IMG/VR virus record: IMGVR_UViG_3300045988_160931
Location: 46,005 to 110,004 of that record
Direction: 5' to 3' (one strand)
From: a virus
Length of the DNA stretch: 64,000 bases
Shown here: piece after piece, positions 7,214 through 62,115 of the stretch
How positions within the stretch are numbered: position 1 is the stretch's first letter
How the letters are laid out: each line of letters begins with the position of its first letter
The notes under the pieces: generated by a model
Seen by the model: only the letters and a program-made list of their open reading frames with translations
Told to the model about the DNA's origin: nothing
Databases searched by the model: none
Program-made: the position numbers and the translations under genes

Positions 7214-8099
7214 AAAATATAAGGATATTCATAGATTAAAGACAACATATGCGAATGATTTTTCTATTGGGAATCATATCATCATTCAAGAAAAAATTGA
7301 TGGCGCTAATGCCTGCATTCGATATGACTTAGAAAACGATCAAATTATTGCTCAAAGCAGAAAGTGTATTCTTTCAGATGGGAATACACTTCGTGGGTTT
7401 TATACTTGGGCAAAATCCTTAAATACAAAACAATTCTCAATTTTAGGCAATCGATTTCTTGTTTTTGGAGAGTGGCTTGTTCCTCACTCTATAAAATATC
7501 CAAACGAAGATTATAACAAGTTTTATGTTTTTGATGTATACGATGCTGAAAAAGAGGAGTACTTACCACAAACAAACGCTCATGATTTTGCAAATGCTCT
7601 TAATTTGCTTTATGTCCCGACATTCTATGATGGTAAGTTTACTTCGTGGGATGATATTTTAGAATATGTAGGGCAAACCGAAATGGGCGGCGAATACGGT
7701 GAAGGTATTGTGGTAAAGAACCAAACAACATTAAATAGCCCTAAGCTTGAATTTTATGTAAAGATTGTCGGAGAAAAATTCCAAGAAACAAAAGGTAGTA
7801 ATGCAAAAGCGGTAGATAAAGAAAAACTACATTCTTTAGAAGTAGACATGAACCTAGCACAAACAATTGTTACTACAGCAAGAGTAACTAAAATTCTTAA
7901 TAAGCTTGTAGATGAATCTGTTCTTCCAGAAGATTGGGGGCTTGAATCTATGGGTATTGTAGCTAAAAATTTATGCAAGAGAATTGTAGAGGATTGCATT
8001 AAAGAAGAACCAGAAACAGTATCAAAAATCAATAACTTTGGGAAGATTGCAAATAAAATTGCTATGCAATATGCAAAAGAAATGGCAATGGCAAGATAA
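7188..8099 (+). CDS. ATP-dependent RNA ligase-like nucleotidyltransferase (Rnl2-like)
   Basis: Motif I EKIDGAN, motif III FLVFGEWLV, IIIa FYVFDVY, IV EGIVVKN, V YVKIVGEKF. 303 aa. Confidence 0.6.
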   Translation: MSQLNLIHKKYKDIHRLKTTYANDFSIGNHIIIQEKIDGANACIRYDLENDQIIAQSRKCILSDGNTLRGFYTWAKSLNTKQFSILGNRFLVFGEWLVPHSIKYPNEDYNKFYVFDVYDAEKEEYLPQTNAHDFANALNLLYVPTFYDGKFTSWDDILEYVGQTEMGGEYGEGIVVKNQTTLNSPKLEFYVKIVGEKFQETKGSNAKAVDKEKLHSLEVDMNLAQTIVTTARVTKILNKLVDESVLPEDWGLESMGIVAKNLCKRIVEDCIKEEPETVSKINNFGKIANKIAMQYAKEMAMAR

Positions 8100-43771: not shown

Positions 43772-45340
43772 TTAATATAATTTTGCTTTATGACTCATTT
43801 TAGCCAACGCAGCAGCATAAACCATAGCGTCAAATTCATCTTCTTCATCATCAAGTTTTGATTCTAATTGCGTCATCACATAATAATTATAAGCCAATGA
43901 ACTATATCTATCTTTACGCATACCACTTTTTTCTTTTATTCTTATGTTTGTACCTTTTACTTCGTATTGTAAATTTATCAATTCATAAACCAATAAACTT
44001 GTCTGTATATATGGCATCTTATACATTAACTGCTCTTCGGGAGTGAGTTTTTCAAAGTTCTTTATTGTGGCTTTCAGTTCTTTTTCCGCCTCTGATTCAT
44101 TCAACAAGAGATTTATCTTACCTGAAATAAAGGCGTTCCTAAGCATAACACAAATATCATTATTAAATTGTACGGTGCCTTTGATTGACCAAATAACCTT
44201 TGGTGCATCTGCCACCTTACAACGTTCTTCCATCGCTTTATTATTACAGCAGGAGAGTGCAGGGTATGTTTCGCCAGTTTCCGGGTCTATAATATCTTTA
44301 ATTAACATATCATATACACCAAGTCCTGTGCCGGCAGTATCAATTACTAAATCAGTACAGTCAAATATACTAAATAATCTGCGTATCTTTAATGCTAGAT
44401 CATCTGTTGTCATTCCTTCAACATTTTCAAGGTACACAATATTTGCGATATATCGTTTGCCATTTGGTTTTGCCGAATTGATAATAATTGAACTAGCATC
44501 GTTAGAGTTCTTATGTTTTGATGCCATCAACGCAATATCAATAGACAATATTCTTCTTTCATCCGGTGCCAGATCAGGTAGTTTAGACCTTTTGGACATA
44601 ACTGTCCGATTTGTATAAAATGCCGTTTTTATCTTTCTTCTACGTGATATATCATTGAATGTAAAGAATGAACCATCAGTATCTCGAATAGGTAGGCAGC
44701 CCATTTCCATTTGGAACATACGTTCATCAAAATCTTCCTCTGACATTTCATCTTCGATTTCAATTCGCTTTTTCAAGCCTTCTTTAATTGCAATTTGATA
44801 AGGTAAGGCACAGACAAAATAACCGGTTCTACCGCCTAATAAATTGAATGTGAAAGCTTTGGATTTTTTGTAAGACCAGTGACTTTCAAACCAACAGGAT
44901 GACATATAAATTTCAATATTAGTTTCAAGAAGTTCTGGCTTGCCTTGATATTCTTTCTTGCTTAAATAAGCTGGTTGTCTAGGCGAACCCAAGAATCTTT
45001 TTAATACAGTATCGATCGTATCTTTGTCGAGCATTCTAAATTCATCCAATACCAATACATTGGCACGGTTACCTCTAGCATTGTCGCCACCTGTAACAAC
45101 TTTTATCCAAGAACCATTATGGAAATTGATATAAGCCAAATTATAACCTATTGAAAAGTTTTTTATCTCTCGTCTTAAATTTTCCGAACCTTCACCATAG
45201 TTTTTCATAAAATCATCGACAATTTTTGAGAGTACTTCATTCGCTTGTGACCTAGTTGCAGACGCTACACAAATTTTTGTTTTAGGGAATAGGATGCAGC
45301 GAACAACGCAAAATAACGCTGTTAGCCAGGTTTTACCAAT
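43772..45340 (-). CDS. terL: terminase large subunit, exon 2 (begins IGKTW...)
   Basis: Starts in the middle of Walker A (..IGKTWLTALF). Walker B-like VLVLDEF. The C-terminal nuclease half includes LSIDIALM. Confidence 0.85.
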   Translation of the reverse strand: MGKTWLTALFCVVRCILFPKTKICVASATRSQANEVLSKIVDDFMKNYGEGSENLRREIKNFSIGYNLAYINFHNGSWIKVVTGGDNARGNRANVLVLDEFRMLDKDTIDTVLKRFLGSPRQPAYLSKKEYQGKPELLETNIEIYMSSCWFESHWSYKKSKAFTFNLLGGRTGYFVCALPYQIAIKEGLKKRIEIEDEMSEEDFDERMFQMEMGCLPIRDTDGSFFTFNDISRRRKIKTAFYTNRTVMSKRSKLPDLAPDERRILSIDIALMASKHKNSNDASSIIINSAKPNGKRYIANIVYLENVEGMTTDDLALKIRRLFSIFDCTDLVIDTAGTGLGVYDMLIKDIIDPETGETYPALSCCNNKAMEERCKVADAPKVIWSIKGTVQFNNDICVMLRNAFISGKINLLLNESEAEKELKATIKNFEKLTPEEQLMYKMPYIQTSLLVYELINLQYEVKGTNIRIKEKSGMRKDRYSSLAYNYYVMTQLESKLDDEEDEFDAMVYAAALAKMSHKAKLY

Positions 45341-46667
45341 CAATTTTGTTATCCTATAAGCTTTTTATCTTATAGTTCTTATAGTTTCCTATAAGTTCAG
45401 CATATATTTTCATCCTCGTTTTACGTTAGGTTTGAGAATTGCAAATTCTCTCATATTACACTATATGTAATAATGCCGGACACTCTTGGAGAGATTATTC
45501 TTTTCGTCACTCTCTATGCGTTACAATTCTATTTGACCTTTTAATTCCAAATAGTTATCTCGGTATTGTCATATAACATAGTTACTTAGATTTCCACCGA
45601 TTTTGCCCGATTTATACTTGATTATCACTAACCAAGAGAGCATTTACTTTGTAATAATTTGAATTTATTATACTTTCTATCTAATTTTTGAACATTTTCG
45701 TTATAATATAAAAGTTCCATCAAACGATATGCTTCTTTTCCATTAAAATAAATTCTATGCTTTCTAGGCGTCTCAGAATATACATGTGATTTAATAGAAT
45801 AGTCATGGCTAACTCTATCAGATATATACTCTAACGCTTTTTTATTATATGATGTGATATGAACAGTTGGATAATACTTTTTATTTTTATTGACATAAAT
45901 GCACCCATCGCCATCTATATATCCTCTTAAAAAATCAATAAAATATTGTTTTAGTACAGGAAATTCTGACATATATGTTTTATTGCAAACAATGTTTTTA
46001 TCAATCAAATCTTCTACTAATTTTTTTGAATAAACTCTCAAACTAACAAGATCTGAAACGGTAACATTTTTATTATTCAAAATAACTCTTTCAAAATGAT
46101 TTTCTTTAATCTCGTGTACTCCGCCAAGTTCATTATTTAAGTCAATTAAAACCTGTTTATCACTCTTCTGCAATCTCATACAAAATTCATAGCTTCTATT
46201 TTCAGAATTGCATATCACGCATCCATCAGCATAAATATATCCTAACCAATATGCTTTATCTGGTGTATCAATTTTTTCAAAATAATTATCGTTGAACTTT
46301 CTGCTTTTATTTTCTAAATAATGCTCTGCATAATGTCTAATTTGTCTTTCTGAGAACCCAAGCTTATTAGCTATATATTTATAGGAATATTTTTTATAAT
46401 TTTGCTCCATATATTTTTTGTCATTGCTGGAAAATATAGAACGATTAGATTTCTTCTTCCCATTATTATGAATCCACCCAGCTATTTGAGTAGCAGAATA
46501 ATTAGTTCCTAATTTAATAGCTATTTCCTTATATGACATATTTTCATAATTATTTGAAATAAAAGTCTTTTGATTTTCATTAAACAATTCTCTTATAATA
46601 AACACCTCTTTTAATAAAAAAGAGGTGGGCGATATTTATTCGCCAAACCTCATTATTACATTTATAT
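45341..46667 (-). mobile_element. group I-type intron (about 1327 nt) interrupting terL
   Basis: The terL frame hits a stop 2 codons after ..FWAARS and resumes at IGKT 1.3 kb downstream. The insert holds a free-standing LAGLIDADG ORF in its own frame. Exon 1 ends in T (46668) and the intron ends in G (45341), as expected for U-1 and omegaG. Confidence 0.7.
45628..46605 (-). CDS. double-motif LAGLIDADG homing endonuclease with two N-terminal HTH-like repeats
   Basis: YWLGYIYADGCV and FLRGYIDGDGCIY. N-terminal MSYKEIAIKLG... and YSYKYIANKLGFSERQIRHY. Confidence 0.85.
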   Translation of the reverse strand: MFIIRELFNENQKTFISNNYENMSYKEIAIKLGTNYSATQIAGWIHNNGKKKSNRSIFSSNDKKYMEQNYKKYSYKYIANKLGFSERQIRHYAEHYLENKSRKFNDNYFEKIDTPDKAYWLGYIYADGCVICNSENRSYEFCMRLQKSDKQVLIDLNNELGGVHEIKENHFERVILNNKNVTVSDLVSLRVYSKKLVEDLIDKNIVCNKTYMSEFPVLKQYFIDFLRGYIDGDGCIYVNKNKKYYPTVHITSYNKKALEYISDRVSHDYSIKSHVYSETPRKHRIYFNGKEAYRLMELLYYNENVQKLDRKYNKFKLLQSKCSLG

Positions 46668-47958: not shown

Positions 47959-49149
47959 TTAATGCAAAATAACGGGATACATACACTGTACCCCGTTACT
48001 ATCACATATTAAAACTGTCTGAGATGGTTTCCCAGTCAATCTTTTTTGTACGCAATAATCATCGCCGCTGCCACCAAGACACCCAGATCGAACCATATAA
48101 ACATCTGAAATTACCTCCATCGCAGGAGTATGATAATGTCCAAATAAAACTCCGGCTGGTTTCTTCCCAGTAGCAAGTACTAAATTAGATAGCCCTCTCT
48201 TAGAGAAACTATCATAATCACCATGGCAAATATAATAATCAAGTCCCTCAACTTGAATATAATTTAACGATGTTTCATTTGATGAAACCGAATGAAAGTT
48301 AGGAATATGTTTCAAAGAATTACAAATATACCAACTTATCAGATCATCAAGTCTCTCGTCTTTCATAGAATCATCTTTCTTAGAAGTAATTCTTGAATGG
48401 TTCCCAGAAACATTTGCGAAACAAACATCGTCAAACATATTTGTGAGTTTATACAAAAAGTCAGAAACTAATTCAGAAGCTTTAATAACTTGCTGAATAA
48501 CATTTTCTCGATTAGTAACAGCAATCGTATAGTGGATATTACCAGAAACAAGATCGCCTAAACCGACAACAAATGCTTTAGAAATGCAATTCATTTCTCT
48601 TATAATTTCTATCTTCTGCAAGTATTCATCCAATCTTTCTTTCGCAATATCCGAATTGTATTTCCCAAATATAGAATCATACGTTGCACCAATATGTAAA
48701 TCTGACAAACAGATCATCATTGTTTTATCGTCACAATATGGAATTTGCTGTGTTTTTGCAATTTGGTTTACAGGATATTTCACTTCGCATGACCTGCGAA
48801 TAATATCCTCTAAATAATCTAATCGTTGTTCTACTCTTGCATCAGAATAATTCTGTTTTTGCCATGCGTTTCTTTCGTCTCTAAATTGAATCTTTGCACG
48901 TTCTAATTCACGTTTCTTTTGTTCAAGTTCTTCAATTTGCTCGTCTATATCAGACAATTTTTTCTGATTAGAATTATACATTCTATCGAAATACTGTCGT
49001 TCTTTTCGAAATTTACTTTCTGTATAATTTGTGCCTAACAGTTCATTTAATATATCTGCAACCTTTTGCCATGAGCCGATAAGTTCCTTATCACTCGTAA
49101 TTCGATAGATCAATTCTTCATCTGTCTCATTTTCAAATCTCTTATACAT
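47959..49149 (-). CDS. calcineurin-like metallophosphoesterase with an N-terminal coiled-coil domain
   Basis: DLHIG, GDLVSGNIH, GNHS, CHGDY and GHYH motifs in the canonical order. Confidence 0.75.
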   Translation of the reverse strand: MYKRFENETDEELIYRITSDKELIGSWQKVADILNELLGTNYTESKFRKERQYFDRMYNSNQKKLSDIDEQIEELEQKKRELERAKIQFRDERNAWQKQNYSDARVEQRLDYLEDIIRRSCEVKYPVNQIAKTQQIPYCDDKTMMICLSDLHIGATYDSIFGKYNSDIAKERLDEYLQKIEIIREMNCISKAFVVGLGDLVSGNIHYTIAVTNRENVIQQVIKASELVSDFLYKLTNMFDDVCFANVSGNHSRITSKKDDSMKDERLDDLISWYICNSLKHIPNFHSVSSNETSLNYIQVEGLDYYICHGDYDSFSKRGLSNLVLATGKKPAGVLFGHYHTPAMEVISDVYMVRSGCLGGSGDDYCVQKRLTGKPSQTVLICDSNGVQCMYPVILH

Positions 49150-49642: not shown

Positions 49643-49911
49643 TTTTTATCATCCTTTATTTGATTTCTTATTTGAGATAATGCACGAATCAAAACATTGA
49701 TCTTGTCATAATCTAATTTTCCACTAATTTCAGTGTTGTCAGTAATTGCATCCGACATAGTTATCTGAATATTTCCTTCATTTTCTAAATAATCAAGCCG
49801 AAGTATAATATCTTTAATCAATTCGAACTCAATCCCAGACGCAATAGGGGATGAGTCATATTTTCTATATTCTACTTTTACAGTATCACTATTCGTAATC
49901 GTAATCGCCAC
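49633..49911 (-). CDS. hypothetical protein (GTG start)
   Basis: 92-aa ORF; first gene of the late operon after the tRNA array. Confidence 0.45.
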   Translation of the reverse strand: MAITITNSDTVKVEYRKYDSSPIASGIEFELIKDIILRLDYLENEGNIQITMSDAITDNTEISGKLDYDKINVLIRALSQIRNQIKDDKKCI

Positions 49912-50010
49912 CCTTTACAAAATTTAATTTATATAGCAAAAGACAGCCCAGAAATATATCTAAGCTGCCTTTTGTTTACTTTAGGAGGTATCAAAATGGA
50001 GTGAAAATGT

Positions 50011-50084
50011 TGGTGGCAGAGTCAAGAGTCGAACTTGAATCACAAGTTTATGAGACTTGTATGTTTCCTTTACACCACTCTGCT
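50011..50084 (-). tRNA. tRNA, anticodon CAT (Met or Ile2), with unpaired A1 x C72
   Basis: Hand-folded. Acceptor AGCAGAG/CTCTGCC, T-arm TCAAG-TTCGACT-CTTGA, anticodon stem CAAGT/ACTTG with loop CTCATAA. CCA is encoded. Confidence 0.75.
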
Positions 50085-50093
50085 AATTTTATT

Positions 50094-50171
50094 TGGTCTA
50101 AGTGACAGGGTTCGAACCTGCGGCATCTTGTTCCCAAAACAAGCATTCTAACCAAACTGAATTACACTTAG
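50094..50171 (-). tRNA. tRNA-Pro (TGG)
   Basis: Acceptor CTAAGTG/CACTTAG (C1:G72), T-loop TTCGAAC, anticodon stem CTTGT/ACAAG with loop TTTGGGA. CCA is encoded. Confidence 0.85.
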
Positions 50172-50174
50172 ATT

Positions 50175-50250
50175 TGGTTGGACTAGCTGGGTTCGAACCA
50201 GCGAAATGACGGAGTCAAAGTCCGTTGCCTTACCACTTGGCTATAGTCCA
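50175..50250 (-). tRNA. tRNA-Gln (TTG)
   Basis: Acceptor TGGACTA/TAGTCCA (U1:A72), T-arm GCTGG-TTCGAAC-CCAGC, anticodon stem ACGGA/TCCGT with loop CTTTGAC. CCA is encoded. Confidence 0.85.
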
Positions 50251-50876
50251 ATATAGTATCCTAAAAATGAATACTCTATTGTGTATATGCAACCGACCTT
50301 CGCCGTACCACCCATTTACCGCACACATATTCATCCACTAGGGAGACAAGTCTGAGCGTTTGGGAGCGACCCTTGGCTTCTTGCCCCGGCATATGCCAAA
50401 TCCTATACAAGTCTGATTACTTGTAACTTTCACCCGAACCATTCAGAAGTTTCTATCATTTATATATAATCCTATAGAATATTCCTTGCACATTGGGCTA
50501 CTCGAACCAGAATCTCGCCTTATACCCTAGTTTCCTAGGTTCAGTGCAAGTAAGACTGTGTTTTGATATTTCCTAGGTTTGCATAAGTAATCAGCTTACA
50601 CCTAACTAGGATTCCACTTGTAGTATTTTACAAGTATCTATTTCCACAGCGACAAGATTCCATGATTTTGTGTACAGTAATGTCAGCACATTTGCCACCA
50701 AGGGACTGTTTTCAATCCTCAACAGTATGTTACCAATACTGCCGATTATAGCAACTAGCTTATCAGTTAATATGCTATCTACTTGATTTACAGACAAATT
50801 CTTCAGCAAGTTGGTTAGACTATCTGCACTGAGTTACTGCATACACACAATACAATATTCAATTATCAAGATACTG
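50251..50876 (-). ncRNA. 626-nt ORF-poor spacer inside the tRNA array; candidate large structured RNA
   Basis: Flanked directly by tRNA genes on the same strand. Only one 67-aa ORF in the track. Locally GC-rich blocks (line 50341: 35/60 G+C). Several 6-bp hairpins and a duplicated TTTCCTAGGTT (50531, 50569). Confidence 0.35.
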
Positions 50877-50951
50877 TGGAGCAAACAACCAGAATCGAAC
50901 TGGCATTCTCTGATTGGGAATCAAATGTTCTAACCATTGAACTATGCTTGC
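50877..50951 (-). tRNA. tRNA-Gly (CCC)
   Basis: Acceptor GCAAGCA/TGTTTGC, D-arm GTTC-AATGGTTA-GAAC, anticodon loop TTCCCAA, U73 discriminator. CCA is encoded. Confidence 0.8.
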
Positions 50952-51011
50952 ATGACAAGTCCAACACCCGAAGGTGTATAAAACTATGTTGGTCTAAAAC
51001 CAACAGTGCAG

Positions 51012-51099
51012 TGGTGGGTGAAGTAGGAATCGAACCTACGGTGTTTCTAATGTAACGGATTTACAGTCCGCCGACTTCGCCAACTGGTCACATTCACCC
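51012..51099 (-). tRNA. tRNA-Tyr (GTA), long variable arm
   Basis: 88 nt. Acceptor GGGTGAA/TTCACCC, T-arm GTAGG-TTCGATT-CCTAC, anticodon loop CTGTAAA. CCA is encoded. Confidence 0.8.
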
Positions 51100-51103
51100 A
51101 TAA

Positions 51104-51190
51104 TGGTGCCGCTAACCGGACTTGAACCGGTACGATATCGCTATCGAGGGATTTTAAGTCCCTTGTGTCTGCCTATTCCACCACAGCGGC
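51104..51190 (-). tRNA. tRNA-Leu (TAA), long variable arm
   Basis: 87 nt. Acceptor GCCGCTG/TAGCGGC, anticodon stem AGGGA/TCCCT with loop CTTAAAA. CCA is encoded. Confidence 0.85.
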
Positions 51191-51260
51191 ATTTACGACT
51201 TTCTTATGTGTCCTAAGACATTAAGCTTTCACTGCCAATCCGAAGATCTCAGAGGTCACT

Positions 51261-51337
51261 TGGTGGGCTATGTAGGACTCGAACCCACAGTCAACCGGTT
51301 ATGAGCCGGATGCTTTAACCAATTAAGCTAATAGCCC
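51261..51337 (-). tRNA. tRNA, anticodon CAT (Met or Ile2)
   Basis: Acceptor GGGCTAT/ATAGCCC, D-arm GCTT-AATTGGTTA-AAGC, anticodon loop CTCATAA. CCA is encoded. Confidence 0.8.
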
Positions 51338-51675
51338 TTATGAGTGCTTTATCGTAGCACACGCAATCTGCATTCCTAATCCAATGGAATCTAAATCGCA
51401 CGTCCAACTTTCATGGATAGTTCTGGACAAACTAGTATTCACTCGATTCGTGACAATTCCGGATAGATGAATTACACAAATCAGCTTAACATTTTTTCTT
51501 TGCATATATGCCTTGCAAGGTCTAACCCACTTCTCTACCTTGCTCACCGCAAGCCTACATTAACACTGCGATTCCCATTACCCGTTAAATCTCTACAAGA
51601 AACTACTTCTAACCGCTTGGATTTTAGCTGTTATATCTAAGTGGGCGGTATACTTTCAAATCTTGTACCCACTAT
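51338..51675 (-). ncRNA. 338-nt ORF-poor spacer inside the tRNA array; candidate structured RNA or processed spacer
   Basis: Lies between the CAT tRNA and tRNA-Lys on the same strand. Contains only a 69-aa track ORF with no SD. Confidence 0.25.
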
Positions 51676-51751
51676 TGGTGCAGTTTATGGGATTTGAACC
51701 CATGACTCTCACATTAAAAGTGTGATACTCTACCAGCTGAGTTAAAACTGC
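51676..51751 (-). tRNA. tRNA-Lys (TTT)
   Basis: Acceptor GCAGTTT/AAACTGC, anticodon stem TCACA/TGTGA with loop CTTTTAA. CCA is encoded. Confidence 0.85.
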
Positions 51752-51756
51752 ACATT

Positions 51757-51845
51757 TGGCGTAGAAGGTGGGATTCGAACCCACGGTTCCTCTCGGAATC
51801 ACTAGTTTTCAAGACTAACTCTTTCAACCACTCAGACACTTCTAC
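51757..51845 (-). tRNA. tRNA-Ser (TGA), long variable arm
   Basis: 89 nt. Acceptor GTAGAAG/CTTCTAC, T-arm GTGGG-TTCGAAT-CCCAC, anticodon loop CTTGAAA, G73. CCA is encoded. Confidence 0.8.
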
Positions 51846-51855
51846 GCAGTTTGTG

Positions 51856-51941
51856 TGGTGGGGGTAAAGGGATTTGAACCCTTATGTCACTAGGACAACG
51901 GTACCTAAAACCGTCCTGTCTGCCTATTCCAGCATACCTCC
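51856..51941 (-). tRNA. tRNA-Leu (TAG), long variable arm
   Basis: 86 nt. T-arm AAGGG-TTCAAAT-CCCTT, anticodon stem ACGGT/ACCGT with loop TTTAGGT. One A x C mismatch in the acceptor stem. CCA is encoded. Confidence 0.75.
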
Positions 51942-52181
51942 ATAAACGGTATTCTAATTTAACCTAAATCTTCCAAAAGAATACTTATCTAGAATTTCTT
52001 GCAATTTTCCAATTTAAGCAGCCAGCCTTTTTCAAACAAATACCGTTTTGCTGGTTTCATAACTAGTGCGTAGCGTGAGAATTGAACTCACATACAACAA
52101 CGTATTCCCAAAACTACACATTTGTCAGATCAGAACTTGGAGATGTAGTATAATTCTGATCTGACTACGAAAGGAGTCACT

Positions 52182-52433
52182 ATGAAAGAAAACCGATGTA
52201 AGGAACACGAAGAAACCTTACACTTATATAATACGATTTTTCTACCCAAAACTAAAACAAAATCAAATATTTTTTTTGAGAATTCTCGCAGATATATATC
52301 CTGCGTTCATCCATATACGGCTGCCATTAAGACAGCCTTAGTTAGAGAGAGGATAGAGAATCGCACAAACAACTATGTTATTAGCTGTTCATGTTCTTAT
52401 TTTTATCAGCAATCCTATTTATCTTATCCTTAA
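52182..52433 (+). CDS. small hypothetical protein (uncertain)
   Basis: 83-aa ORF with AAAGGAG SD 5 nt before the ATG. Preceded by a 12-bp hairpin. Its 3' end overlaps the convergent gene. Confidence 0.35.
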   Translation: MKENRCKEHEETLHLYNTIFLPKTKTKSNIFFENSRRYISCVHPYTAAIKTALVRERIENRTNNYVISCSCSYFYQQSYLSYP

Positions 52434-52868: not shown

Positions 52869-55739
52869 TTACTTTTTTCTGTATTCAGATTGTTTTTCAG
52901 TTTTATATCTTCTTCTATATTCAGCATAGCATTTTCTGCATTTTGTTGTCGTATTATCATTCTTTTTTACAAAAAACCATGTACCACATTCTTCACACTG
53001 TATTGACTTTTCAAAAGATAATCCATATTGACGAATATCTTTTAGTATCAAGTTCTTGTTGCGAAGTAAATTTCTGTAGATTTGTTTTCCAAAGCAAAAC
53101 CAAAGTACTTCTTTGTTTTTGCTTTTCTTAAAGTCATATAGATACTTAACTAAAATATCCGTGATTTCCTTTTCTGTCTTACCAGTCTTAAAAAACTCTT
53201 GTCTTATTTCTTTCGCAACGTCACCAATAACAATATCATTCTTCAAATTTGAATCCAAATTTACAGAAGATGATGCAGAAAAAACATTATCATCGACATT
53301 TGTTATCTTATACCGATATTTCCGACTCATATCTAAATATGTTAGGATAACACTATCTGTTCTATCTGCAATCGGCTTACCATTCCCATTAACTTCAATT
53401 CTGATCTTCAGTTCTGGATTTGACATCATATAAGCATAATTGATTTTCCCTATTTTTAATCCTCTACAATTGATTCTTGGATTTGGGATAATCTTATCTA
53501 ATTGATTTACTAAACTTTCATTGACAGCTTCAACCTGAGATTCCAACTTATCTTTTGCATACACAAAAAAGTGTGGCAGTTTATTTTTTGTAAACATCTT
53601 AACTTGTTCACCAAAATCATCTGTTCTTTCTGGCATATATAATGTCTTAGCAGCATCAATTGAGAAATTGGATTCAGCACATAACAATCGGATTGTATCT
53701 AGTGCAATTTTCTTTTCTTCCTCAGTACCATATTGAAAAACACCACAATTCCAAATCTTTGAGATATTATTGCTATATACTCCAATATTCCCATATGTAA
53801 ACGCAGCATTTAACCCATTATATAATACTTCATTTGTAATCTCAGAAGCATCTGCTTTACGCATATTATAATAAAGAGGAACAAAATCATATTTTTCTTT
53901 ATTTCGTTTTGCAATTTCTATAATCTTTTTATCAGACACAACAAGGAGCGTATCCCCATCCACATCGAGCTGCAAAATTTTGGTAATTAAATCATGAGTA
54001 CTTGTATACAAGCTATTTGTACAGAACCATTTCCGAATTTTATCTCTATCCTGGCATTCAATATAAGCTTTGTTTTTACGTACAGCGTGTTCAAAGAATA
54101 AATGTGGGGAGCGAAGGCAATCAAGTTCTTCATCTTTTCGAAATAGCCAACAAAATACTTCGTCATCTTTCAAAAGACCTTCTGGAACCTCAACCCCTTG
54201 AAATAACCATTGACAAAAAGCAAATAAGTCCGGCAAAACAAACGTGTATTTTCCTTTAACCTCTAACTTCCCTGATTTATATCGCTTTACCATGCTATCT
54301 TTGATCTCACGAATTTTTGATTTGATGAAATCATCATTTATCAGATTCGGATATAGAGCAATCGACTTTTGGAGATATGTTTGATTCTGATTATATGCTG
54401 TAATACCTAATGCAGCTTTTATCGTATCTACAGAAGAACATAAGGAATTTAGTTTTTTTATAGAATCACTTGCGATCTCAACAATTTCATCATCTGTAAT
54501 GTCGGATAAGGATTGCAGCATTTGATAATTGATTTTAGAATCCTTAATTCGCTCTTCTTCTGGTTTAGTATAGCAAGCGTGGCATCTATATTTTTTGAAT
54601 TTTCGCTTATAATCTTCCCATGAATCATAGTATTTATAAAGCTTAAACTGGCTTTTCGTCATAATAACCTGAATCTTTTCGGCTATAACATCATGTTCTA
54701 TCCCATAAATATCTTTTATAACAGGGGAACAGTTGAACTCTTGTATGAACGAAACGAAATCAAATACACCAAGTAATCCTTTAATCCATGGTAAACGAAC
54801 CATCCTCGTACATCCCATTTCTGGAAGCATGATTCCGCAGCCATCAGTATGAGGGATAGGAACCCTATCATGTTTTCTAGTAATTGAATAATCTTCATCA
54901 GAAATATAATCAAATTCACCATATACTTGCGTTTCAAAATCATCTACAACAATAACTCTATCAATATCGAAACCAATCCATTCATCAGTAGCAGAATTGG
55001 ATAAAGCAGTGTAGGCAAGAAATTTATTTGGATTTATTCCACCCTTTTCATTTATCTTATCAAGCGTCAATCCACACATAAGTGTTTTTTCTTTCTCTTT
55101 CCAAATTGATTCTTTCATAAAAACACATTTCTTAGTTCTGATCTGTCCGGCAGAAGATGTAAAATACACATATTTTTCTCCGTGATACATAAATCCAAAG
55201 TGAATCATATCTTTTATTAGATCATAATAATAAATTTGGACAACCATAAAAGCATCTGAAAATTCATCCTGTTTCATTCCAATTGTTCTTGTGCAAAATG
55301 AATCAAATACTGAAATCACATTTTTATTGCAGAACTCACCAGAAACAGTCTTAATCGTTCTTTCGTCTAGCGTTCGAATATGATCTTTCCCGTTTGTAAG
55401 AATATTTTGGTTTGTTTTGTTCTCCAATAAAGAAAGCAATTTGTCTTTACTCTGCTTTATTCTTTCTCTCTTATGCACGATCAGATCACTATAGAATCGG
55501 TAATCAGAAACTAGATTAAAAATATCATCTGGGACATCCAATTCTTCTTTTACCATTGATTTGAATTCTTTTTCATGATACCCTTGTTTCTCAACAGAGG
55601 TTTCTATCAATTCAAGGCGTGTTTTTAGATATTTTCGTTCCTGCCGAAGTTTATGGTTCAAAATATGTAATCTTCTTTCTCGATTGCTATAAAAATTACC
55701 TGTGTCTACCGATAAAATCTTACACTGCTTATCAAGCAC
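52869..55739 (-). CDS. YonO / RdRP-like single-chain two-barrel RNA polymerase with a C-terminal zinc ribbon
   Basis: Ordered motifs match the RdRP/YonO family: FTSSAGQIRTKKCVFM, PHTDGCGIMLP, RLPWIKGLLGVF, MTKSQFKLYKY, INYQMLQSL, CLRSPHLFFEH, and catalytic LDVDGDTLLVV (DxDGD). C-terminal CEECG...CRKC. Confidence 0.75.
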   Translation of the reverse strand: MLDKQCKILSVDTGNFYSNRERRLHILNHKLRQERKYLKTRLELIETSVEKQGYHEKEFKSMVKEELDVPDDIFNLVSDYRFYSDLIVHKRERIKQSKDKLLSLLENKTNQNILTNGKDHIRTLDERTIKTVSGEFCNKNVISVFDSFCTRTIGMKQDEFSDAFMVVQIYYYDLIKDMIHFGFMYHGEKYVYFTSSAGQIRTKKCVFMKESIWKEKEKTLMCGLTLDKINEKGGINPNKFLAYTALSNSATDEWIGFDIDRVIVVDDFETQVYGEFDYISDEDYSITRKHDRVPIPHTDGCGIMLPEMGCTRMVRLPWIKGLLGVFDFVSFIQEFNCSPVIKDIYGIEHDVIAEKIQVIMTKSQFKLYKYYDSWEDYKRKFKKYRCHACYTKPEEERIKDSKINYQMLQSLSDITDDEIVEIASDSIKKLNSLCSSVDTIKAALGITAYNQNQTYLQKSIALYPNLINDDFIKSKIREIKDSMVKRYKSGKLEVKGKYTFVLPDLFAFCQWLFQGVEVPEGLLKDDEVFCWLFRKDEELDCLRSPHLFFEHAVRKNKAYIECQDRDKIRKWFCTNSLYTSTHDLITKILQLDVDGDTLLVVSDKKIIEIAKRNKEKYDFVPLYYNMRKADASEITNEVLYNGLNAAFTYGNIGVYSNNISKIWNCGVFQYGTEEEKKIALDTIRLLCAESNFSIDAAKTLYMPERTDDFGEQVKMFTKNKLPHFFVYAKDKLESQVEAVNESLVNQLDKIIPNPRINCRGLKIGKINYAYMMSNPELKIRIEVNGNGKPIADRTDSVILTYLDMSRKYRYKITNVDDNVFSASSSVNLDSNLKNDIVIGDVAKEIRQEFFKTGKTEKEITDILVKYLYDFKKSKNKEVLWFCFGKQIYRNLLRNKNLILKDIRQYGLSFEKSIQCEECGTWFFVKKNDNTTTKCRKCYAEYRRRYKTEKQSEYRKK

Positions 55740-57924: not shown

Positions 57925-58186
57925 AGCGATCTCCTCTCCAATCTAAAAACGGTATACCCAATGTCAAAATTCAAACAAATTTAGATAGCCTAAACCCAAA
58001 GCACAGTTCTCAGAAGGACTACAAATCACAAAAAGCAATCCTACTTATAATATACGATTTTTAATATAAAAAGTAAAAAGCATAATCAAATTTTATTTCC
58101 TTTGATAGTCCATTGGTAATCGTTTTATCGAGAAAATGACATTGAAATTCACTTTTCATTTTTGTAAACCGTTTGGTTGACACATA

Positions 58187-58272
58187 TTATTTACTTTACT
58201 TTTTTGTAAAGCTGAAATCGTTAAAATAGCCGATTTTGAGAAAATTACCTTACAAAAAAGTAAAGTAAATAA
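58187..58272. repeat. perfect 23-nt inverted repeat, arms 40 nt apart
   Basis: TTATTTACTTTACTTTTTTGTAA (58187-58209) and TTACAAAAAAGTAAAGTAAATAA (58250-58272). Further TTTGTAAA/TTTACAAA copies at about 58161 and 58283. Confidence 0.85.
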
Positions 58273-58317
58273 TAAAAAATCACTTTACAAAAATGTGCCG
58301 AAAAAAGCCGTATACTA

Positions 58318-58362
58318 TATATAAGAAAGAATATATATACAATATATAAGAAAGAATATATA
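58318..58362 (+). repeat. 20-nt perfect direct repeat, period 25
   Basis: TATATAAGAAAGAATATATA at 58318-58337 and 58343-58362. Confidence 0.85.
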
Positions 58363-60815
58363 CACTATAGAAGAAGATTATACGCACGTTGCCGCCAAAC
58401 ATAGAAAATCCAGTACTAGAGAAATCTAATACTGGATTGATTTTAGATATGATATTTTTCTAATTGAGTGTATCTCCAATAATAATATAAGCTAATATAG
58501 TTTATGCTTCTTATAGATTAGATAGATAAGATTATATTTTATATTGAGTAACTACTTTGTGTTAGTACTGATTAGTATTGAGATTATCTTTCTTGTATCT
58601 TAATACTGCATCATAATTTATCTGACTACAATTTTGGTATAATCAGATATTGAGTATTCTGTATTGACTATAGTAAGTTCTATATTAAAATCTCTAAATT
58701 GGATATGCTATTAATTAGCTATGTTATGTATTGTATTAGTTAGAGTTAATTTATGCTATTTCTTTTATGCTTCGCTACGCTACGCTGTCATTTCGCTACG
58801 CTCAATGATTGACTTTCATTCACTACGTTCATTCCAGTCAAATATATTACTTATGGATTATTGATTATTGATTATTTGGATATTAGATTATGTTTGATTG
58901 TCTTATTTAAGCAAATAAATTTTCAATTTGAATATGCTTTAGATAATATGTATTATGTTATATGATTCAATATTTATCTTAATTTTTGATTGCGTAATCT
59001 AATATCAATTTTAAGCTATCTAGAATTGATTCTAAGAGACTTTACTATTTCACCCTCAATTATACTATTTTTCTTATAGCGTCTTAAAACGGCTTTTAGA
59101 TGCCTTAGAATCGATATTGAGATTTTACACTATTTGATTATTGTGGTTTTAATGCTTTTATATTATAATCTTGCAGAATGAAATCATTATGATTTTATAA
59201 AATCAAATATAAGCTGCCAGAAGTCTTTCTAAGACGTTTTGCAGAGAATACTATAATCTAAGCCTGCCAATATAGCAAATTGCCTTAGAGATGATTCTGA
59301 TAGCAATTCAGATGCTAATAACAGCACTAATATGATTCGAATAGTAGAATTGATAGAGTAGAATATCTAAAATATTGGATATGCTTATTTAAGCTCACAA
59401 ACGCTAGAGTTTATCAATGTACAAGAACTTCTACAATTAGGGTAGTAAACTATACCCCTACATATTTGCAGTTGCAGATAACTCGATCATCATCGATGTT
59501 CTAGCGCTTAAAATCGATTCTGGGTTTAGATGTTTGATTTTGGTCTGTGCATACTTGTATATTATTCCAGAACTTTTTTATGATATGAAGCTATGTTAGG
59601 GTCGAACTGATAGACCTTGCAAATTTCGATTAAGCAATACCAGCTAATCAAGAGCAATATAATTTTTGTATGTGATTTTCAAATATGATATTCTGAAAAT
59701 ACAGTCTTAGCCTGAGTTAGACATCTAAACACAAGATTGGAGATTTTTAAGATTAGAGCTTTTAATGACTATGATAGTTTTAGACTCCGATTTTTGATTT
59801 AAGATTTTTTAGATTATACTTTTATTGCAGCTTAATGGGTACCTCCATAGAATGAAATTTATTTTTCTTCAGAAAATAGAGTACCTTAATTTTAGATACA
59901 GTGTTTATTTTATAACGAATAGAGGTTTTATTTTTCCGATAAATACGAAATTGCACGGGTATAACGTGAAAATATCCCAAAATAAGCAAAATTGCGGCAT
60001 ATGTAAAATATCACGCAAATGCGTTATTTTTTAGATTTTGGTTTCCAATTGAAATAATTGAATAAGTACTTAAAATCGTTGAAAATAAGTACCATCTGAA
60101 TGATTTTCTTCGAAATTTCGGTATATTTTATTTTTGATATTGGGGTAGGATTCGTAGTATATTTTGTAGAAAATTCAAACGAATATTTTTAATAATTCGT
60201 ATGGTGTCCAGAGCAATTAAAATCAGAAAATCAAATTTTGAGAATTTTGATTTAATCAAATTTAATCAGAATTGTTTGAAGGAAATCGGGAACGACTGAA
60301 GAGATGAACATAGCAAAAATGAGGAACGGAAAATGGGGTGAAAAACAGGGTAAAAATAGGGCGTTTTTAGGTGTTGAAAGTTACCAATTAAATGGTAATA
60401 AAACGGATGCGATTTTGAGTGAGATTATTTTGTTTTCATTTTTAACTATAATATTATGATTTGAATTTTGATTATGGTATTTTTGATTGAATCAGAATGA
60501 TAGAAATATTGAATGTGAAAAAATTGAATTTAGATTAGGGCGTGGATGAGCATTGTTTGGGTGCGATTTGAGTGTTACATGATAGCATCTGAATGCTGCA
60601 TAATGGCAGGGGAGGTCTGGCAACGAGTATAGAGAGAATTTCGGGAGGATAATTTGGACTAATTTTGAGTTGTTTTTGGGGTTAACCAGCAGAATGATTT
60701 AAGTCAATTTGAGAGTATTTTTTTTGTTGTGTTGGGGATTAGATTTGTTTTGATTTGTTATATTAATGTCGTGATTTTTGGCGAAATTGCGCTGTTTTTT
60801 GAATTTAGGAGAGAT

Positions 60816-60950
60816 GGGGATTGGGATGTGAATTGGGATTCGGGAATGTGGTAGGGGAGTGGGGCAAGAGGGGATGGAGGATGGGGAGATGAGAGTGAGA
60901 AATGAGATTTTTGAGTATGGGCGGTGTGTGGAACACGTATGGGGCTGGGG
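60816..60950 (+). repeat. cluster of at least 11 G-runs (3 or more G) on the + strand
   Basis: GGGG 60816, GGG 60823, 60835, 60842, GGGG 60854, 60861, 60870, 60883, GGG 60919, GGGG 60941, 60947. Only 2 C between 60806 and 60900. Confidence 0.85.
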
Positions 60951-61031
60951 TAAAAATGGAATGTTGAAAAAATTGTAAAATAGCCCCGGTTAAGATTGCA
61001 ACCGCCGGAAACAGCGACGGGAGAAAAAATG

Positions 61032-61069
61032 CGAATGTGAAAAAACCGATTTTTTTCACATTCGTTTTT
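61032..61069. terminator. bidirectional rho-independent terminator
   Basis: 14-bp stem CGAATGTGAAAAAA (61032-61045) / TTTTTTCACATTCG (61051-61064). A6 before, T5 after. Confidence 0.7.
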
Positions 61070-61257
61070 GCTAGTTTTGGGATATTATAAATATAAAATT
61101 TTCGTGAATTCAAATAGTTTCACGTGAAACATTTCTAAAATATTTCTGAGTCAATAGAAAATCTATATCTTGATTGCCGATCGCCTGGTATCGTTATAGT
61201 GATATGAGAACGATACCATACAAGCAGATCAGAAAACCGCTGCCGGTATTGGGATAT

Positions 61258-61292
61258 AAAAAAAGAGTGTAAAGCGAAATAACTTTACACTC
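61258..61292 (-). terminator. rho-independent terminator for leftward transcription
   Basis: 10-bp stem GAGTGTAAAG (61265-61274) / CTTTACACTC (61283-61292). The A7 run at 61258-61264 reads as T7 on the minus strand. Confidence 0.7.
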
Positions 61293-61317
61293 GATTGACT
61301 ACAATTTAACAATAGTT

Positions 61318-61507
61318 TATCACTAAACAATAATATATCCGCCGTAGTCCTCACTAGTCATCACTAAATTATCACGTATATTTCACACAGTTTTTACATT
61401 CCTATCACAAGGCTATCACGTATCAAATACTAACCCATCACTATTCCATCATTAGTCCAACACATACTTAACACTTATATATCACATACTTATCACAAAA
61501 CTATCAC
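61318..61507 (+). repeat. array of TATCAC / ATCAC motifs, partly phased at 11 bp
   Basis: TATCAC at 61318, 61370, 61403, 61414, 61480, 61491 and 61502. ATCAC at 61360 and 61437. Confidence 0.85.
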
Positions 61508-61827
61508 ATTAAGCACAGCGCCAACCATCAATAATTATATAACGCTGTTATACATACATTCCGAAACAGAACCCGAAAACCAGAAACAAGATATCATCTA
61601 TATAGATCTATCCAGCGTCAACCACTATCCAGAGCCAGAACCGGGGAACTATTGCCAACCAGATGTGCCCACATGAGACCCACCACATGCCGCATATACG
61701 CTAATATCGCCACATATACGCCCATATACCCTTCACACTTATATATAAAGTATAGGGCTTATATAAGCCTCTGAGAAGCCAATACAAGCCCTTGCCTACT
61801 ATATAAGAGTATAGCAGTATACCGATT

Positions 61828-62115
61828 TTATCTGCCGATATTATCCGCTTTTTGGGGGGATGCCGCCGCCGCCATGGCTGCTAGCTCCGCCGTACTATCG
61901 TCTGGCACATACTCTAGTATATCGCCAGGTTGGCATCCTAGCAATGCGCATATTTTGTCAATCGTTACCATATTAAAAATCATAGGGTCATTTTTGTGTA
62001 TTTTGGTTACTACTGCACCGGGCATAATCTTTTTATTTTTCAATGTTGAAGGACTCAGCCCTTTATTTTTCAAAGTATCTTGCACATTTTCCTTAAAAAT
62101 AATAATCAAAATCAC
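61828..62115 (-). CDS. XRE-family helix-turn-helix transcriptional regulator
   Basis: KENVQDTLKNKGLSPSTL...VTIDKICALLGCQPGDILEYVPD matches the short Cro/CI-type HTH family (...LCxxLxCxPGDLLEY). Confidence 0.8.
   Translation of the reverse strand: MILIIIFKENVQDTLKNKGLSPSTLKNKKIMPGAVVTKIHKNDPMIFNMVTIDKICALLGCQPGDILEYVPDDSTAELAAMAAAASPQKADNIGR

What the first reader, a model, noticed from the sequence alone, without database searches (positions are those of the whole stretch)
50251..50876. 626-nt non-coding insert flanked by tRNAs: candidate large ornate RNA (ROOL/GOLLD class) or novel structured RNA
The array is interrupted by 626 nt on the same strand. The insert has no convincing ORF; the only track ORF is 67 aa and lacks an SD.
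- It has GC-rich blocks unlike normal intergenic DNA here (line 50341 is 35/60 G+C).
- It has multiple 6-bp hairpins: ACAAGT/ACTTGT at 50406-50423, ACTTGT/ACAAGT at 50626-50645, and CAGTAT/ATACTG at about 50722-50740.
- It has a duplicated TTTCCTAGGTT at 50531 and 50569.

Being bracketed by tRNAs, it would be released by RNase P and RNase Z processing. ROOL (roughly 580 nt) and GOLLD (roughly 800 nt) RNAs are known to reside in Firmicutes prophages next to tRNA genes, and the size fits ROOL. I cannot confirm the consensus by eye.
Basis: inference. Interest (0 to 1): 0.7.

Follow-up and report, generated by a model that had tools for sequence, protein, structure and literature searches.

The report
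ROOL RNA gene inside phage tRNA array
The 626-base gap in this phage's tRNA gene array is a full-length copy of the known ROOL RNA, a large non-coding RNA that assembles into hollow RNA-only cages and whose biological role is still unknown.

Summary
Window 50251-50876 is exactly the spacer between tRNA-Gly(CCC) and tRNA-Gln(UUG), in a ten-tRNA array on the minus strand.

Rfam's ROOL model (RF03087) matches 50275-50857 (-) end to end: 288 bits against a threshold of 99, E = 4e-65. GOLLD and every other family are absent. The RNA folds far better than shuffles (z = -6.2). 127 of 153 consensus pairs are standard pairs. The structure covaries in an alignment with 19 diverged viral ROOLs. The 67-aa ORF is not conserved.

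So this is a new member of a known family. Its function remains unknown; solved ROOLs form hexameric or octameric RNA cages.

The context is new to me. The host is an SPbeta-like temperate phage, probably of Lachnospiraceae. The tRNA/ROOL island lies directly downstream of a YonO-type single-chain RNA polymerase gene and upstream of the YonJ-like exonuclease and structural genes. In SPbeta this slot holds the YonO late promoter and a non-coding RNA. In other YonO phages the same slot carries tRNAs (22 of 32 lineages), ROOL (2) or GOLLD (at least 2).

All ten tRNAs encode CCA, so RNase Z release is doubtful.

The parts
50275..50857 (-). ROOL RNA core (Rfam RF03087, model positions 1-574)
   Evidence: cmscan gives 288.2 bits against a gathering score of 99.1, E = 4e-65, not truncated. 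127 of 153 consensus pairs are standard pairs in this sequence. Covariation is seen with 19 homologs.
50858..50876 (-). 5' flank that extends the closing helix P1 up to 1 nt from the CCA end of tRNA-Gly
   Evidence: In the minimum-free-energy fold of the whole spacer, nt 2-11 pair with nt 613-622. The flank-flank duplex is -17.9 kcal/mol, z = -4.6.
50251..50274 (-). 3' flank, the partner of the 5' flank in the extended P1; it ends 4 nt before tRNA-Gln
50439..50492 (-). Variable linker enclosed by the conserved AGUAGCCC / GGGUGAAAG stem; its 3' end carries the invariant CUGAAUG
   Evidence: This is the unstructured, poorly conserved stretch at model positions about 358-407. It is the region rich in length variation and gaps in the 20-sequence alignment. 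It corresponds to the disordered linker inside the cage in PMC12286853.
50812..50814 (-). Loop of the second stem (CCA), which pairs with UGG at 50439-50441 just after CUGAAUG: a covarying long-range 3-bp contact
   Evidence: 20 of 20 sequences are paired. The first pair is C-G, A-U or U-A, with 12 double changes.
50590..50593 (-). Apical loop UGAU, which pairs with AUCA at 50564-50567: a pseudoknot kept here by compensatory changes (the family consensus is UGGC:GCCA)
   Evidence: 89% of cells are paired and 3 of 4 pairs show changes on both sides.
50877..50951 (-). Upstream tRNA-Gly(CCC), CCA encoded
50175..50250 (-). Downstream tRNA-Gln(UUG); RNase P cleavage at its 5' end would create the ROOL 3' end (inferred)
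50011..51941 (-). The whole island: 10 tRNA genes (Leu, Ser, Lys, Met, Leu, Tyr, Gly, [ROOL], Gln, Pro, Met), all on one strand and all with encoded CCA
49937..49974 (-). 16-bp terminator-like hairpin just after the last tRNA
   Evidence: -23.5 kcal/mol, z = -4.7
52869..55739 (-). YonO-type single-chain two-barrel RNA polymerase gene, immediately upstream of the island
   Evidence: 42% identity to SPBc2 yonO over 92% of the protein, E = 2e-177. Pfam RdRP scores 33.7 bits. PHROG 8308 matches at E = 1.6e-238.
47959..49149 (-). YonJ-like exonuclease, the first recognisable gene of the structural/late block downstream of the island
   Evidence: PHROG 284 exonuclease, E = 3e-55. Synteny with SPBc2 yonK-yonJ.

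Best explanation
Window 50251-50876 (minus strand) is a gene for a ROOL RNA, embedded in the tRNA island of an SPbeta-like temperate phage.

Shown here:
- The sequence matches the ROOL model from end to end.
- It keeps the family's nested multi-stem architecture, two covarying long-range loop contacts and the variable linker.
- It has no conserved reading frame.
- Its closing helix P1 extends through both flanks to within 1-4 nt of the neighbouring tRNAs.

Inferred:
- It is transcribed together with the ten same-strand tRNAs.
- Its 3' end is made by RNase P cutting at the 5' end of tRNA-Gln.
- Its 5' end is made by an endonucleolytic cut at the base of the P1 stalk just after the CCA of tRNA-Gly.
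- Like the three ROOLs solved by cryo-EM, it folds into a flat monomer that self-assembles without protein into a hollow hexameric or octameric cage, with the linker inside.

The biological role is unknown. My best guess is a late-infection helper RNA that acts together with the phage-supplied tRNAs on translation or tRNA metabolism.
For: - Model match: full length at 288 bits against a threshold of 99, on the tRNA strand.
- Near-identical copy: the twin IMG/VR contig scores 289 bits.
- Thermodynamics: fold z = -6.2.
- Pairing: 127 of 153 consensus pairs are standard pairs.
- Covariation: on a structure-blind MAFFT alignment with 19 viral ROOLs (51% mean column identity), the score is 0.377 against 0.182 for shuffles (0 of 500 reach it) and at most 0.245 for slid controls. 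121 pairs change on both sides.
- Long-range contacts: two loop contacts covary and are kept in the window.
- No coding potential: every homolog has stops in all three frames across the 67-aa ORF, and Pfam gives no hit.
- Phage context: terminase, portal, exonuclease and integrase are present.
- tRNA context in relatives: of 55 viral ROOLs, 38 have a tRNA within 3 kb. In 37 of the 38 the nearest flanking tRNAs lie on the ROOL strand. Four besides the window are bracketed within 150 nt on both sides.
- P1 extension into the flanks.
- Literature: ROOL cages, the interior linker and tRNA-island context (PMC12286853; PMC12990946; PMC5737381).
Against: - No expression data exist for this locus.
- No sigma-70-like promoter was found on the minus strand upstream of the array.
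- The CM alignment is poor for one hairpin (model positions about 79-112 and 175-181). That accounts for most of the 26 non-standard pairs, although a shifted local hairpin exists.
- The apical hairpin that I take to be P7 is 3 bp longer than consensus. The stoichiometry of solved ROOLs depends on this apex, so the oligomeric state cannot be predicted.
- CCA-encoding tRNAs argue against RNase Z making the 5' end.
- The two long-range contacts were picked from the same alignment used to count them.
Confidence: 0.93

Rival explanations
1. It is a decaying, non-functional ROOL relic carried along passively in the tRNA island.
For: Some consensus pairs are non-standard (26 of 153). ROOL was non-essential in the one strain tested (PMC12286853). 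Related YonO phages lack ROOL in this slot.
Against: The match is full length at nearly three times the family threshold. All invariant columns of the 20-sequence alignment are kept. Both covarying long-range contacts are intact through compensatory changes. Only 2 of 626 positions differ from the twin phage, and one of those turns a G-U pair in P1 into G-C.
Confidence: 0.04
2. The region encodes a small protein (the 67-aa ORF at 50606-50809, minus strand) and the RNA structure is incidental.
For: The ORF exists on the transcribed strand.
Against: It has a TTG start and no Shine-Dalgarno sequence. Pfam gives no hit. All 19 homologs have at least one stop in each of the three frames across the aligned segment, and indels there are not multiples of three.
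Confidence: 0.01
3. It belongs to another large RNA class found next to tRNAs (GOLLD, a group I/II intron, or a new class) and not to ROOL.
For: GOLLD occupies the equivalent position in related YonO phages.
Against: No family other than ROOL matches at E <= 1 in 49900-52400. GOLLD profiles built from the related phages find nothing in the window.
Confidence: 0.01
4. On expression only: the tRNA/ROOL island is a self-contained unit read by host RNA polymerase and ended by the hairpin at 49937-49974. It is not the leader of the YonO-dependent late operon.
For: A strong terminator-like hairpin follows the last tRNA. Most viral ROOLs are not next to a yonO gene. tRNA islands in phages are often expressed on their own (my own knowledge).
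Against: No sigma-70-like promoter was found on the minus strand upstream. The island occupies the slot that holds the YonO transcription start and a non-coding RNA in SPbeta. It has the same orientation as yonO and the late genes.
Confidence: 0.4

Closest known systems
ROOL RNA family (Rfam RF03087; env-120, Enterococcus faecalis and Ligilactobacillus salivarius ROOLs solved by cryo-EM)
   Same: Full-length model match, size (583 nt core against a family mean of 581), nested multi-stem fold, covarying loop contacts, a variable linker, a phage setting and same-strand tRNA neighbours (PMC5737381; PMC12286853).
   Different: Sequence is distant from other members: no blastn match in GenBank phages, and the closest non-twin viral ROOL scores only 119 bits by nhmmer. 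The apical hairpin has 7 bp against a consensus of 4. P1 runs through the entire inter-tRNA spacer. The oligomeric state is untested.
GOLLD RNA (Rfam RF02032)
   Same: A large ornate cage-forming RNA of phages, found next to tRNAs. Here it occupies the same slot downstream of yonO in related phages: L201 at 172 bits, L178 at 104.5 bits with E = 4e-28, and 20 of 80 loci by nhmmer.
   Different: Unrelated sequence and fold. There is no GOLLD match in the window.
SPbeta yonN-yonK intergenic region (YonO late promoter plus an unannotated non-coding RNA)
   Same: Same position: downstream of yonO, upstream of the yonK/yonJ exonuclease and the terminase, on the same strand.
   Different: SPbeta has no tRNAs or ROOL there. 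Rfam finds only a 64-nt DUF3800-VIII motif. No shared promoter-like k-mer was found.

Membership tests
ROOL RNA (RF03087) | Covariance-model score at or above the curated gathering score, over the full model | tested here: met
   288.2 bits against 99.1, model positions 1-574 of 574, E = 4e-65, not truncated.
ROOL RNA (RF03087) | Length near 580 nt | tested here: met
   583-nt model span inside a 626-nt spacer. The family mean is 581 nt (PMC5737381).
ROOL RNA (RF03087) | Conserved nested multi-stem architecture supported by covariation | tested here: met
   127 of 153 consensus pairs are standard pairs. On a structure-blind alignment of 20 ROOLs the covariation score is 0.377 against 0.182 for shuffles (0 of 500 reach it) and at most 0.245 for slid controls.
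ROOL RNA (RF03087) | Long-range loop contacts (pseudoknots or kissing loops) | tested here: met
   Two contacts covary and are kept in the window: CCA:UGG and UGAU:AUCA. They were chosen from the same alignment, and sequence cannot tell whether they are intra- or intermolecular.
ROOL RNA (RF03087) | Poorly conserved linker enclosed by a conserved stem | tested here: met
   Window 50439-50492. This is the gap-rich, variable-length region in the alignment.
ROOL RNA (RF03087) | Non-coding | tested here: met
   The ORF is not conserved in any of the 19 homologs and has no Pfam hit.
ROOL RNA (RF03087) | Phage or prophage location, often beside same-strand tRNAs | tested here: met
   Phage genes are present. 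tRNAs lie 19 nt upstream and 24 nt downstream of the ROOL model span. 38 of 55 viral ROOLs have tRNAs within 3 kb.
ROOL RNA (RF03087) | Protein-free homo-oligomeric cage (hexamer or octamer) | not testable with these tools
   Needs mass photometry or cryo-EM. Known only for env-120, Efa and Lsa ROOLs.
ROOL RNA (RF03087) | Discrete, abundant transcript | not testable with these tools
   No expression data are available for this uncultured phage.
GOLLD RNA (RF02032) | Covariance-model match | tested here: not met
   No GOLLD hit at E <= 1 in 49900-52400 or at the gathering score in the whole window. GOLLD nhmmer profiles find nothing in the window.
RNA released from a tRNA precursor by RNase P and RNase Z | tRNAs directly abutting both ends, with a CCA-less upstream tRNA as RNase Z substrate | tested here: inconclusive
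   The tRNAs abut both ends, which fits RNase P at the 3' side. All ten tRNAs encode CCA, which from my own knowledge disfavours RNase Z.
Leader of the YonO-transcribed late operon of SPbeta-like phages | Position between yonO and the yonK/yonJ late genes, same strand; a YonO-dependent transcription start upstream | tested here: inconclusive
   The position and strand are met. The transcription start and its dependence on YonO cannot be tested here.

The most novel reading that the evidence does not exclude
In SPbeta-like phages, the slot just downstream of the YonO RNA polymerase gene would be the start of the late transcript. It is a hot-spot that carries phage tRNAs plus either ROOL or GOLLD as interchangeable cargo.

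On this reading, the two unrelated cage-forming RNAs are functional equivalents. Both would be made late in infection by the phage's own polymerase, and both would be cut out of the same precursor as the tRNAs they act with, for example by storing or shielding phage tRNAs or by engaging ribosomes.
Probability: 0.25. Interest if true: 0.7.

Novelty: new member of a known kind. Interest (0 to 1): 0.33.

Why it matters
By itself, this is one more ROOL. It adds a diverged, full-length member from an uncultured gut or rumen phage to a family whose function is an open question despite atomic structures.

The useful part is the context:
- The ROOL sits in a defined syntenic slot of SPbeta-like phages, next to a YonO-type polymerase.
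- In relatives the same slot holds GOLLD or only tRNAs.
- In SPbeta itself the slot holds the late promoter and a non-coding RNA.

This gives concrete predictions about when ROOL is made, by which polymerase, and how it is excised. It also offers natural ROOL-containing, GOLLD-containing and empty phage variants to compare.

Tried and rejected
- **Sequence searches with the ROOL spacer.** blastn in distant mode against GenBank phages found nothing. Megablast of 20 kb around it found only tRNA-sized matches.
- **Other spacers.** I looked for relatives of the 338-nt spacer (51338-51675) and of the 413-nt insert in the twin phage. I used the fetched loci, GenBank phages and one IMG/VR pattern scan; none were found.
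- **Promoters.** The sigma-70 scan found no minus-strand site upstream of the array, and the total count was below that of shuffles. A shared k-mer search across yonO-downstream regions, aimed at a YonO promoter motif, gave only A-rich words.
- **Genomic relatives.** The genome contigs relatives of YonO (Lachnospiraceae MAGs and Faecalicatena contorta) carry no ROOL or tRNA within 6 kb. They gave a host hint but no extra ROOLs.
- **Blind loop-loop covariation scan.** It was mostly noise from conserved G/U columns. I kept only the two contacts with changes on both sides.
- **Coding hypothesis.** Rejected for the 67-aa ORF. Also rejected for the 69-aa ORF in the 338-nt spacer, which has a stop at codon 6 in the twin phage.
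- **Identity to the twin phage as evidence of selection.** The 99.7% identity of ROOL between the window and the twin phage (2 differences in 626 nt) cannot be read as selection. It lies in a block of about 1.2 kb that is near-identical, within an otherwise mosaic array.

Full report
**Observation.** ARAGORN finds ten tRNA genes on the minus strand between 50011 and 51941. tRNA-Gln(UUG) ends at 50250 and tRNA-Gly(CCC) starts at 50877, so the finding's coordinates are exactly the 626-nt spacer between them.
- The 67-aa TTG ORF at 50606-50809 (-) exists.
- Line 50341-50400 is 35/60 G+C, and the 11-mer TTTCCTAGGTT occurs at 50531 and 50569.
- All three 6-bp hairpins are present. One is about 10 nt from the stated position: 50616-50635, not 50626-50645.
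- The spacer folds at -195.5 kcal/mol against -153.7 +/- 6.8 for dinucleotide shuffles, z = -6.2.

**Identity.** A scan of the whole window against Rfam 15 gives one non-tRNA hit: ROOL (RF03087) at 50275-50857, minus strand. It covers model positions 1-574 of 574 at 288.2 bits against a gathering score of 99.1, E = 4e-65. A permissive scan of 49900-52400 at E <= 1 adds nothing except tRNA look-alikes on the opposite strand, so there is no GOLLD, intron or riboswitch.

I projected the Rfam consensus structure onto the sequence. Of 159 consensus pairs, 6 are lost to gaps in the CM alignment, and 127 of the remaining 153 are standard pairs. Most exceptions lie in one hairpin where the CM alignment has low posterior probability and a shifted local hairpin exists.

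The two copies of AACCUAGGAAA (RNA sense) are the 3' strand of one stem plus its A-rich junction, and the 5' strand plus GAAA loop of the next hairpin. Stem numbers used in this report (P7 and so on) are my reading of the order of stems in the Rfam consensus. I did not check them against the published figures.

**Homologs and covariation.** An invariant ROOL motif (CTGAATG N1-8 GGTGAAAGTT) retrieved at least 120 IMG/VR stretches. Iterated nhmmer recognised 55 of them as ROOL. I aligned twenty diverse full-length members, including the window, with MAFFT and without structural guidance; mean column identity was 51%.
- On that alignment the projected structure has a covariation score of 0.377. 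Column shuffles give 0.182 (0 of 500 reach the observed value) and partners slid by 1-3 columns give at most 0.245. 121 of 153 pairs change on both sides.
- Two long-range contacts outside the nested structure also covary and are kept in the window. The first is the loop of the second stem (CCA, 50812-50814) with UGG right after the invariant CUGAAUG (50439-50441). It is paired in 20 of 20 sequences, as C-G, A-U or U-A at the first position.
- The second is an apical loop (UGAU, 50590-50593) with AUCA at 50564-50567, where the family consensus is UGGC:GCCA.
- Both contacts were selected from the same alignment, which inflates the statistics. Sequence alone cannot say whether they form within one chain or between chains.
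- The published structures describe such contacts as pseudoknots and as inter-chain kissing loops.

**Not coding.** Across the segment aligned to the 67-aa ORF, all 19 homologs have at least one stop in every frame. Indels there are not multiples of three, and Pfam finds nothing.

**Anatomy specific to this copy.**
- The closing helix continues beyond the Rfam model into both flanks. Nucleotides 2-11 of the spacer pair with 613-622, and the flank duplex is -17.9 kcal/mol, z = -4.6. The base of P1 therefore lies 1 nt from the CCA of tRNA-Gly and 4 nt from the first base of tRNA-Gln.
- P1 also extends past the model in most homologs.
- The small hairpin that I take to be the apical P7 has 7 bp and a 6-nt loop, against 4 bp and 5 nt in the consensus. 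Apex length differs between hexameric and octameric ROOLs, so I make no prediction of stoichiometry.
- The linker (50439-50492) is short and contains no tRNA.

**Processing.** All ten tRNAs encode CCA. From my own knowledge of Bacillus-type tRNA maturation, RNase Z acts on CCA-less precursors and CCA-containing ones are finished by exonucleases.
- RNase P at tRNA-Gln should define the ROOL 3' end.
- The 5' end needs another cut at the base of the P1 stalk. A double-strand-specific enzyme acting on the stalk, as in rRNA precursors, is one possibility. This is inference only.
- Among the 55 viral ROOLs, 38 have a tRNA within 3 kb. In 37 of those the nearest flanking tRNAs are on the ROOL strand. 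23 have a tRNA within 150 nt on at least one side. Four besides the window are bracketed on both sides. This fits co-transcription and excision by tRNA processing.

**The phage.**
- The window encodes a terminase, a portal protein and an exonuclease.
- It also encodes NrdD, ThyX, dUTPase, an RNA ligase and a tyrosine integrase.
- It has no near relative in GenBank phages.
- A twin exists in IMG/VR: UViG 3300045988_164820, 107 kb, with its ROOL at 289 bits.
- The portal protein is about 30% identical to those of SPbeta-like phages of Staphylococcus, Mammaliicoccus and Bacillus.
- The 956-aa protein just upstream of the island is a YonO homolog. It is 42% identical to SPBc2 yonO over 92% of its length (E = 2e-177), hits Pfam RdRP, and contains a DVDGD motif.
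- YonO homologs at about 50% identity occur in Lachnospiraceae genomes (Kineothrix, Acetatifactor, Faecalicatena contorta), which suggests the host group. Those loci have no tRNA or ROOL nearby.

**Position of the island.**
- In SPBc2 the gene order is yonO, yonN, a 1.7-kb non-coding gap, yonK, yonJ (exonuclease), and onward to yonF (terminase).
- Rfam finds a DUF3800-VIII motif in that gap.
- In the window the order is the yonO homolog, 930 nt of non-coding DNA, the tRNA/ROOL island, a strong hairpin (49937-49974, -23.5 kcal/mol, z = -4.7), two small ORFs, the YonJ-like exonuclease, and then the terminase, portal and tail genes. All are on the minus strand.
- The island therefore occupies the slot that holds the late promoter and a non-coding RNA in SPbeta.

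**How general the slot is.** A profile of six YonO sequences retrieved 80 IMG/VR loci.
- Of 71 loci with at least 3 kb downstream of yonO, 52 have same-strand tRNAs within 6 kb, usually starting 0.6-1 kb after the stop codon. Six have a ROOL there: the twin, plus a second lineage with tRNA-Leu, then ROOL, then the exonuclease.
- In other loci an 830-920-nt ORF-free gap between two tRNAs is GOLLD. L201 scores 172 bits against a gathering score of 150. L178 scores 104.5 bits, full length, E = 4e-28.
- Profiles built from those two GOLLD hits find GOLLD in 20 of the 80 loci, always 1.3-2.3 kb after yonO.
- After collapsing near-identical yonO genes there are 32 lineages: 22 with tRNAs, 2 with ROOL and at least 2 with GOLLD.
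- Conversely, most viral ROOLs are not next to yonO. The slot is one recurrent home for ROOL, not the only one.
- I found no paper in the held library that mentions both GOLLD and YonO. The one paper found that mentions both ROOL and SPbeta treats them in unrelated sections.

**Function.** None is known. ROOL was as abundant as 16S rRNA yet non-essential in one Ligilactobacillus salivarius strain. Three ROOLs form protein-free cages, octamers or hexamers, with the linker inside. The authors speculate that the cages encapsulate tRNAs, ribosomes or other cargo.
- My committed reading: this copy is co-transcribed with the phage tRNAs, excised by tRNA-processing enzymes, and assembles into such a cage.
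- It would act late in infection, in connection with translation or tRNA supply.
- Identity is near certain. Co-transcription is likely. Which polymerase reads it is open: I put YonO-dependent late transcription at roughly even odds against a host-polymerase unit ended by the hairpin. The cellular role is a guess.

**Verdict.** It is a new, diverged member of a known family, not a new kind of RNA. Interest is modest for the locus itself. It is raised somewhat by the defined SPbeta-like context and by the positional equivalence of ROOL and GOLLD downstream of yonO.

Noticed in passing
L001:9834-10246 (+), the twin phage IMGVR_UViG_3300045988_164820; the equivalent junction in the window is about 51846-51855: A 413-nt insert lies between tRNA-Leu(UAG) and tRNA-Ser(UGA) in the twin phage and is absent from the window. 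It folds with z = -3.98, has no Rfam match at E <= 1, has no ORF over 34 aa inside it, and has no relatives in GenBank phages or in one IMG/VR pattern scan. It is a candidate unclassified structured RNA in a tRNA array.
   Followed up: partly
window 51338-51675 (-): A 338-nt spacer lies between tRNA-Lys and tRNA-Met. It has no Rfam match, and its fold is no better than shuffles (z = -0.5). It is 87% identical to the twin phage. Its 69-aa ORF is broken at codon 6 in the twin. No relatives were found elsewhere, and its nature is unknown.
   Followed up: partly
L178:14117-14546, L201:13931-14424 and 18 further YonO loci (L179-L183, L185, L186, L188-L192, L200, L203, L205-L208): GOLLD RNA sits between two tRNAs 1.3-2.3 kb downstream of yonO in related SPbeta-like viral contigs. 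This is the same slot that holds ROOL in the window. The L178 type scores 104.5 bits, below Rfam's gathering score of 150, so it would be missed by default annotation.
   Followed up: partly
L130:10381-10446 (+) = Bacillus phage SPBc2 NC_001884.1, yonN-yonK gap: A DUF3800-VIII RNA motif (47.5 bits against a gathering score of 40.2) lies in the SPbeta gap that contains the YonO late promoter. It may be the 'unannotated non-coding RNA' mentioned by Forrest et al. 2017.
   Followed up: no
window 50011-51941 compared with L001:9751-12079: The tRNA island is mosaic between the two twin phages. From tRNA-Tyr through ROOL to the last tRNA-Met it is about 99.8% identical. The 5' half is 80-93% identical, and the tRNA-Leu(UAG) and tRNA-Ser sequences have clearly been replaced. 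This suggests cassette exchange by recombination.
   Followed up: partly
window about 57950-61900: A stretch of about 4 kb has no ORF of 120 aa or more. It is AT-rich (25-30% G+C around 58-60 kb). It also contains a G-rich tract at about 60780-60960, which gives a GC skew of +0.565. It may be a phage genome end, an origin or a regulatory region.
   Followed up: no
window about 52066-52100 (-): A tRNA-like remnant lies upstream of the array: a T-arm GUGAGUUCAAUUCUCAC followed by an acceptor-like 3' strand. It produced a weak tmRNA 3'-end hit. A 14-bp inverted repeat lies next to it at 52122-52166.
   Followed up: no
window 43772-46605 (-): The terminase large-subunit ORF (43772-45343) matches only the C-terminal part of the terminase profiles. 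An HNH/endonuclease ORF (45628-46605) lies just upstream. A 68-nt stretch at 45343-45411 is 90-94% identical to otherwise unrelated phages. This may be a homing-endonuclease or intron-type insertion.
   Followed up: no
window 7188-8099 (+): The phage encodes an RNA ligase (Pfam PF09414, E = 1.6e-27), alongside NrdD, ThyX and dUTPase. Together with ten tRNAs, this hints at tRNA repair or a tRNA-centred conflict with the host.
   Followed up: no
ROOL loci L001, L050, L090 group, L110 (and the window, 50175-50250): tRNA-Gln(UUG) is the gene immediately downstream of ROOL (11-97 nt away) in several diverged ROOL lineages. The L090 group also has a YonJ-like exonuclease about 3 kb downstream but no yonO within 9-11 kb upstream.
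   Followed up: no
L187:14397-15459 (+): A 1063-nt gap between tRNA-Gln and tRNA-Tyr lies downstream of yonO. It is 44% G+C, has no ORF over 82 aa, and has no Rfam hit at the gathering score. It is another possible large RNA in the same slot.
   Followed up: no
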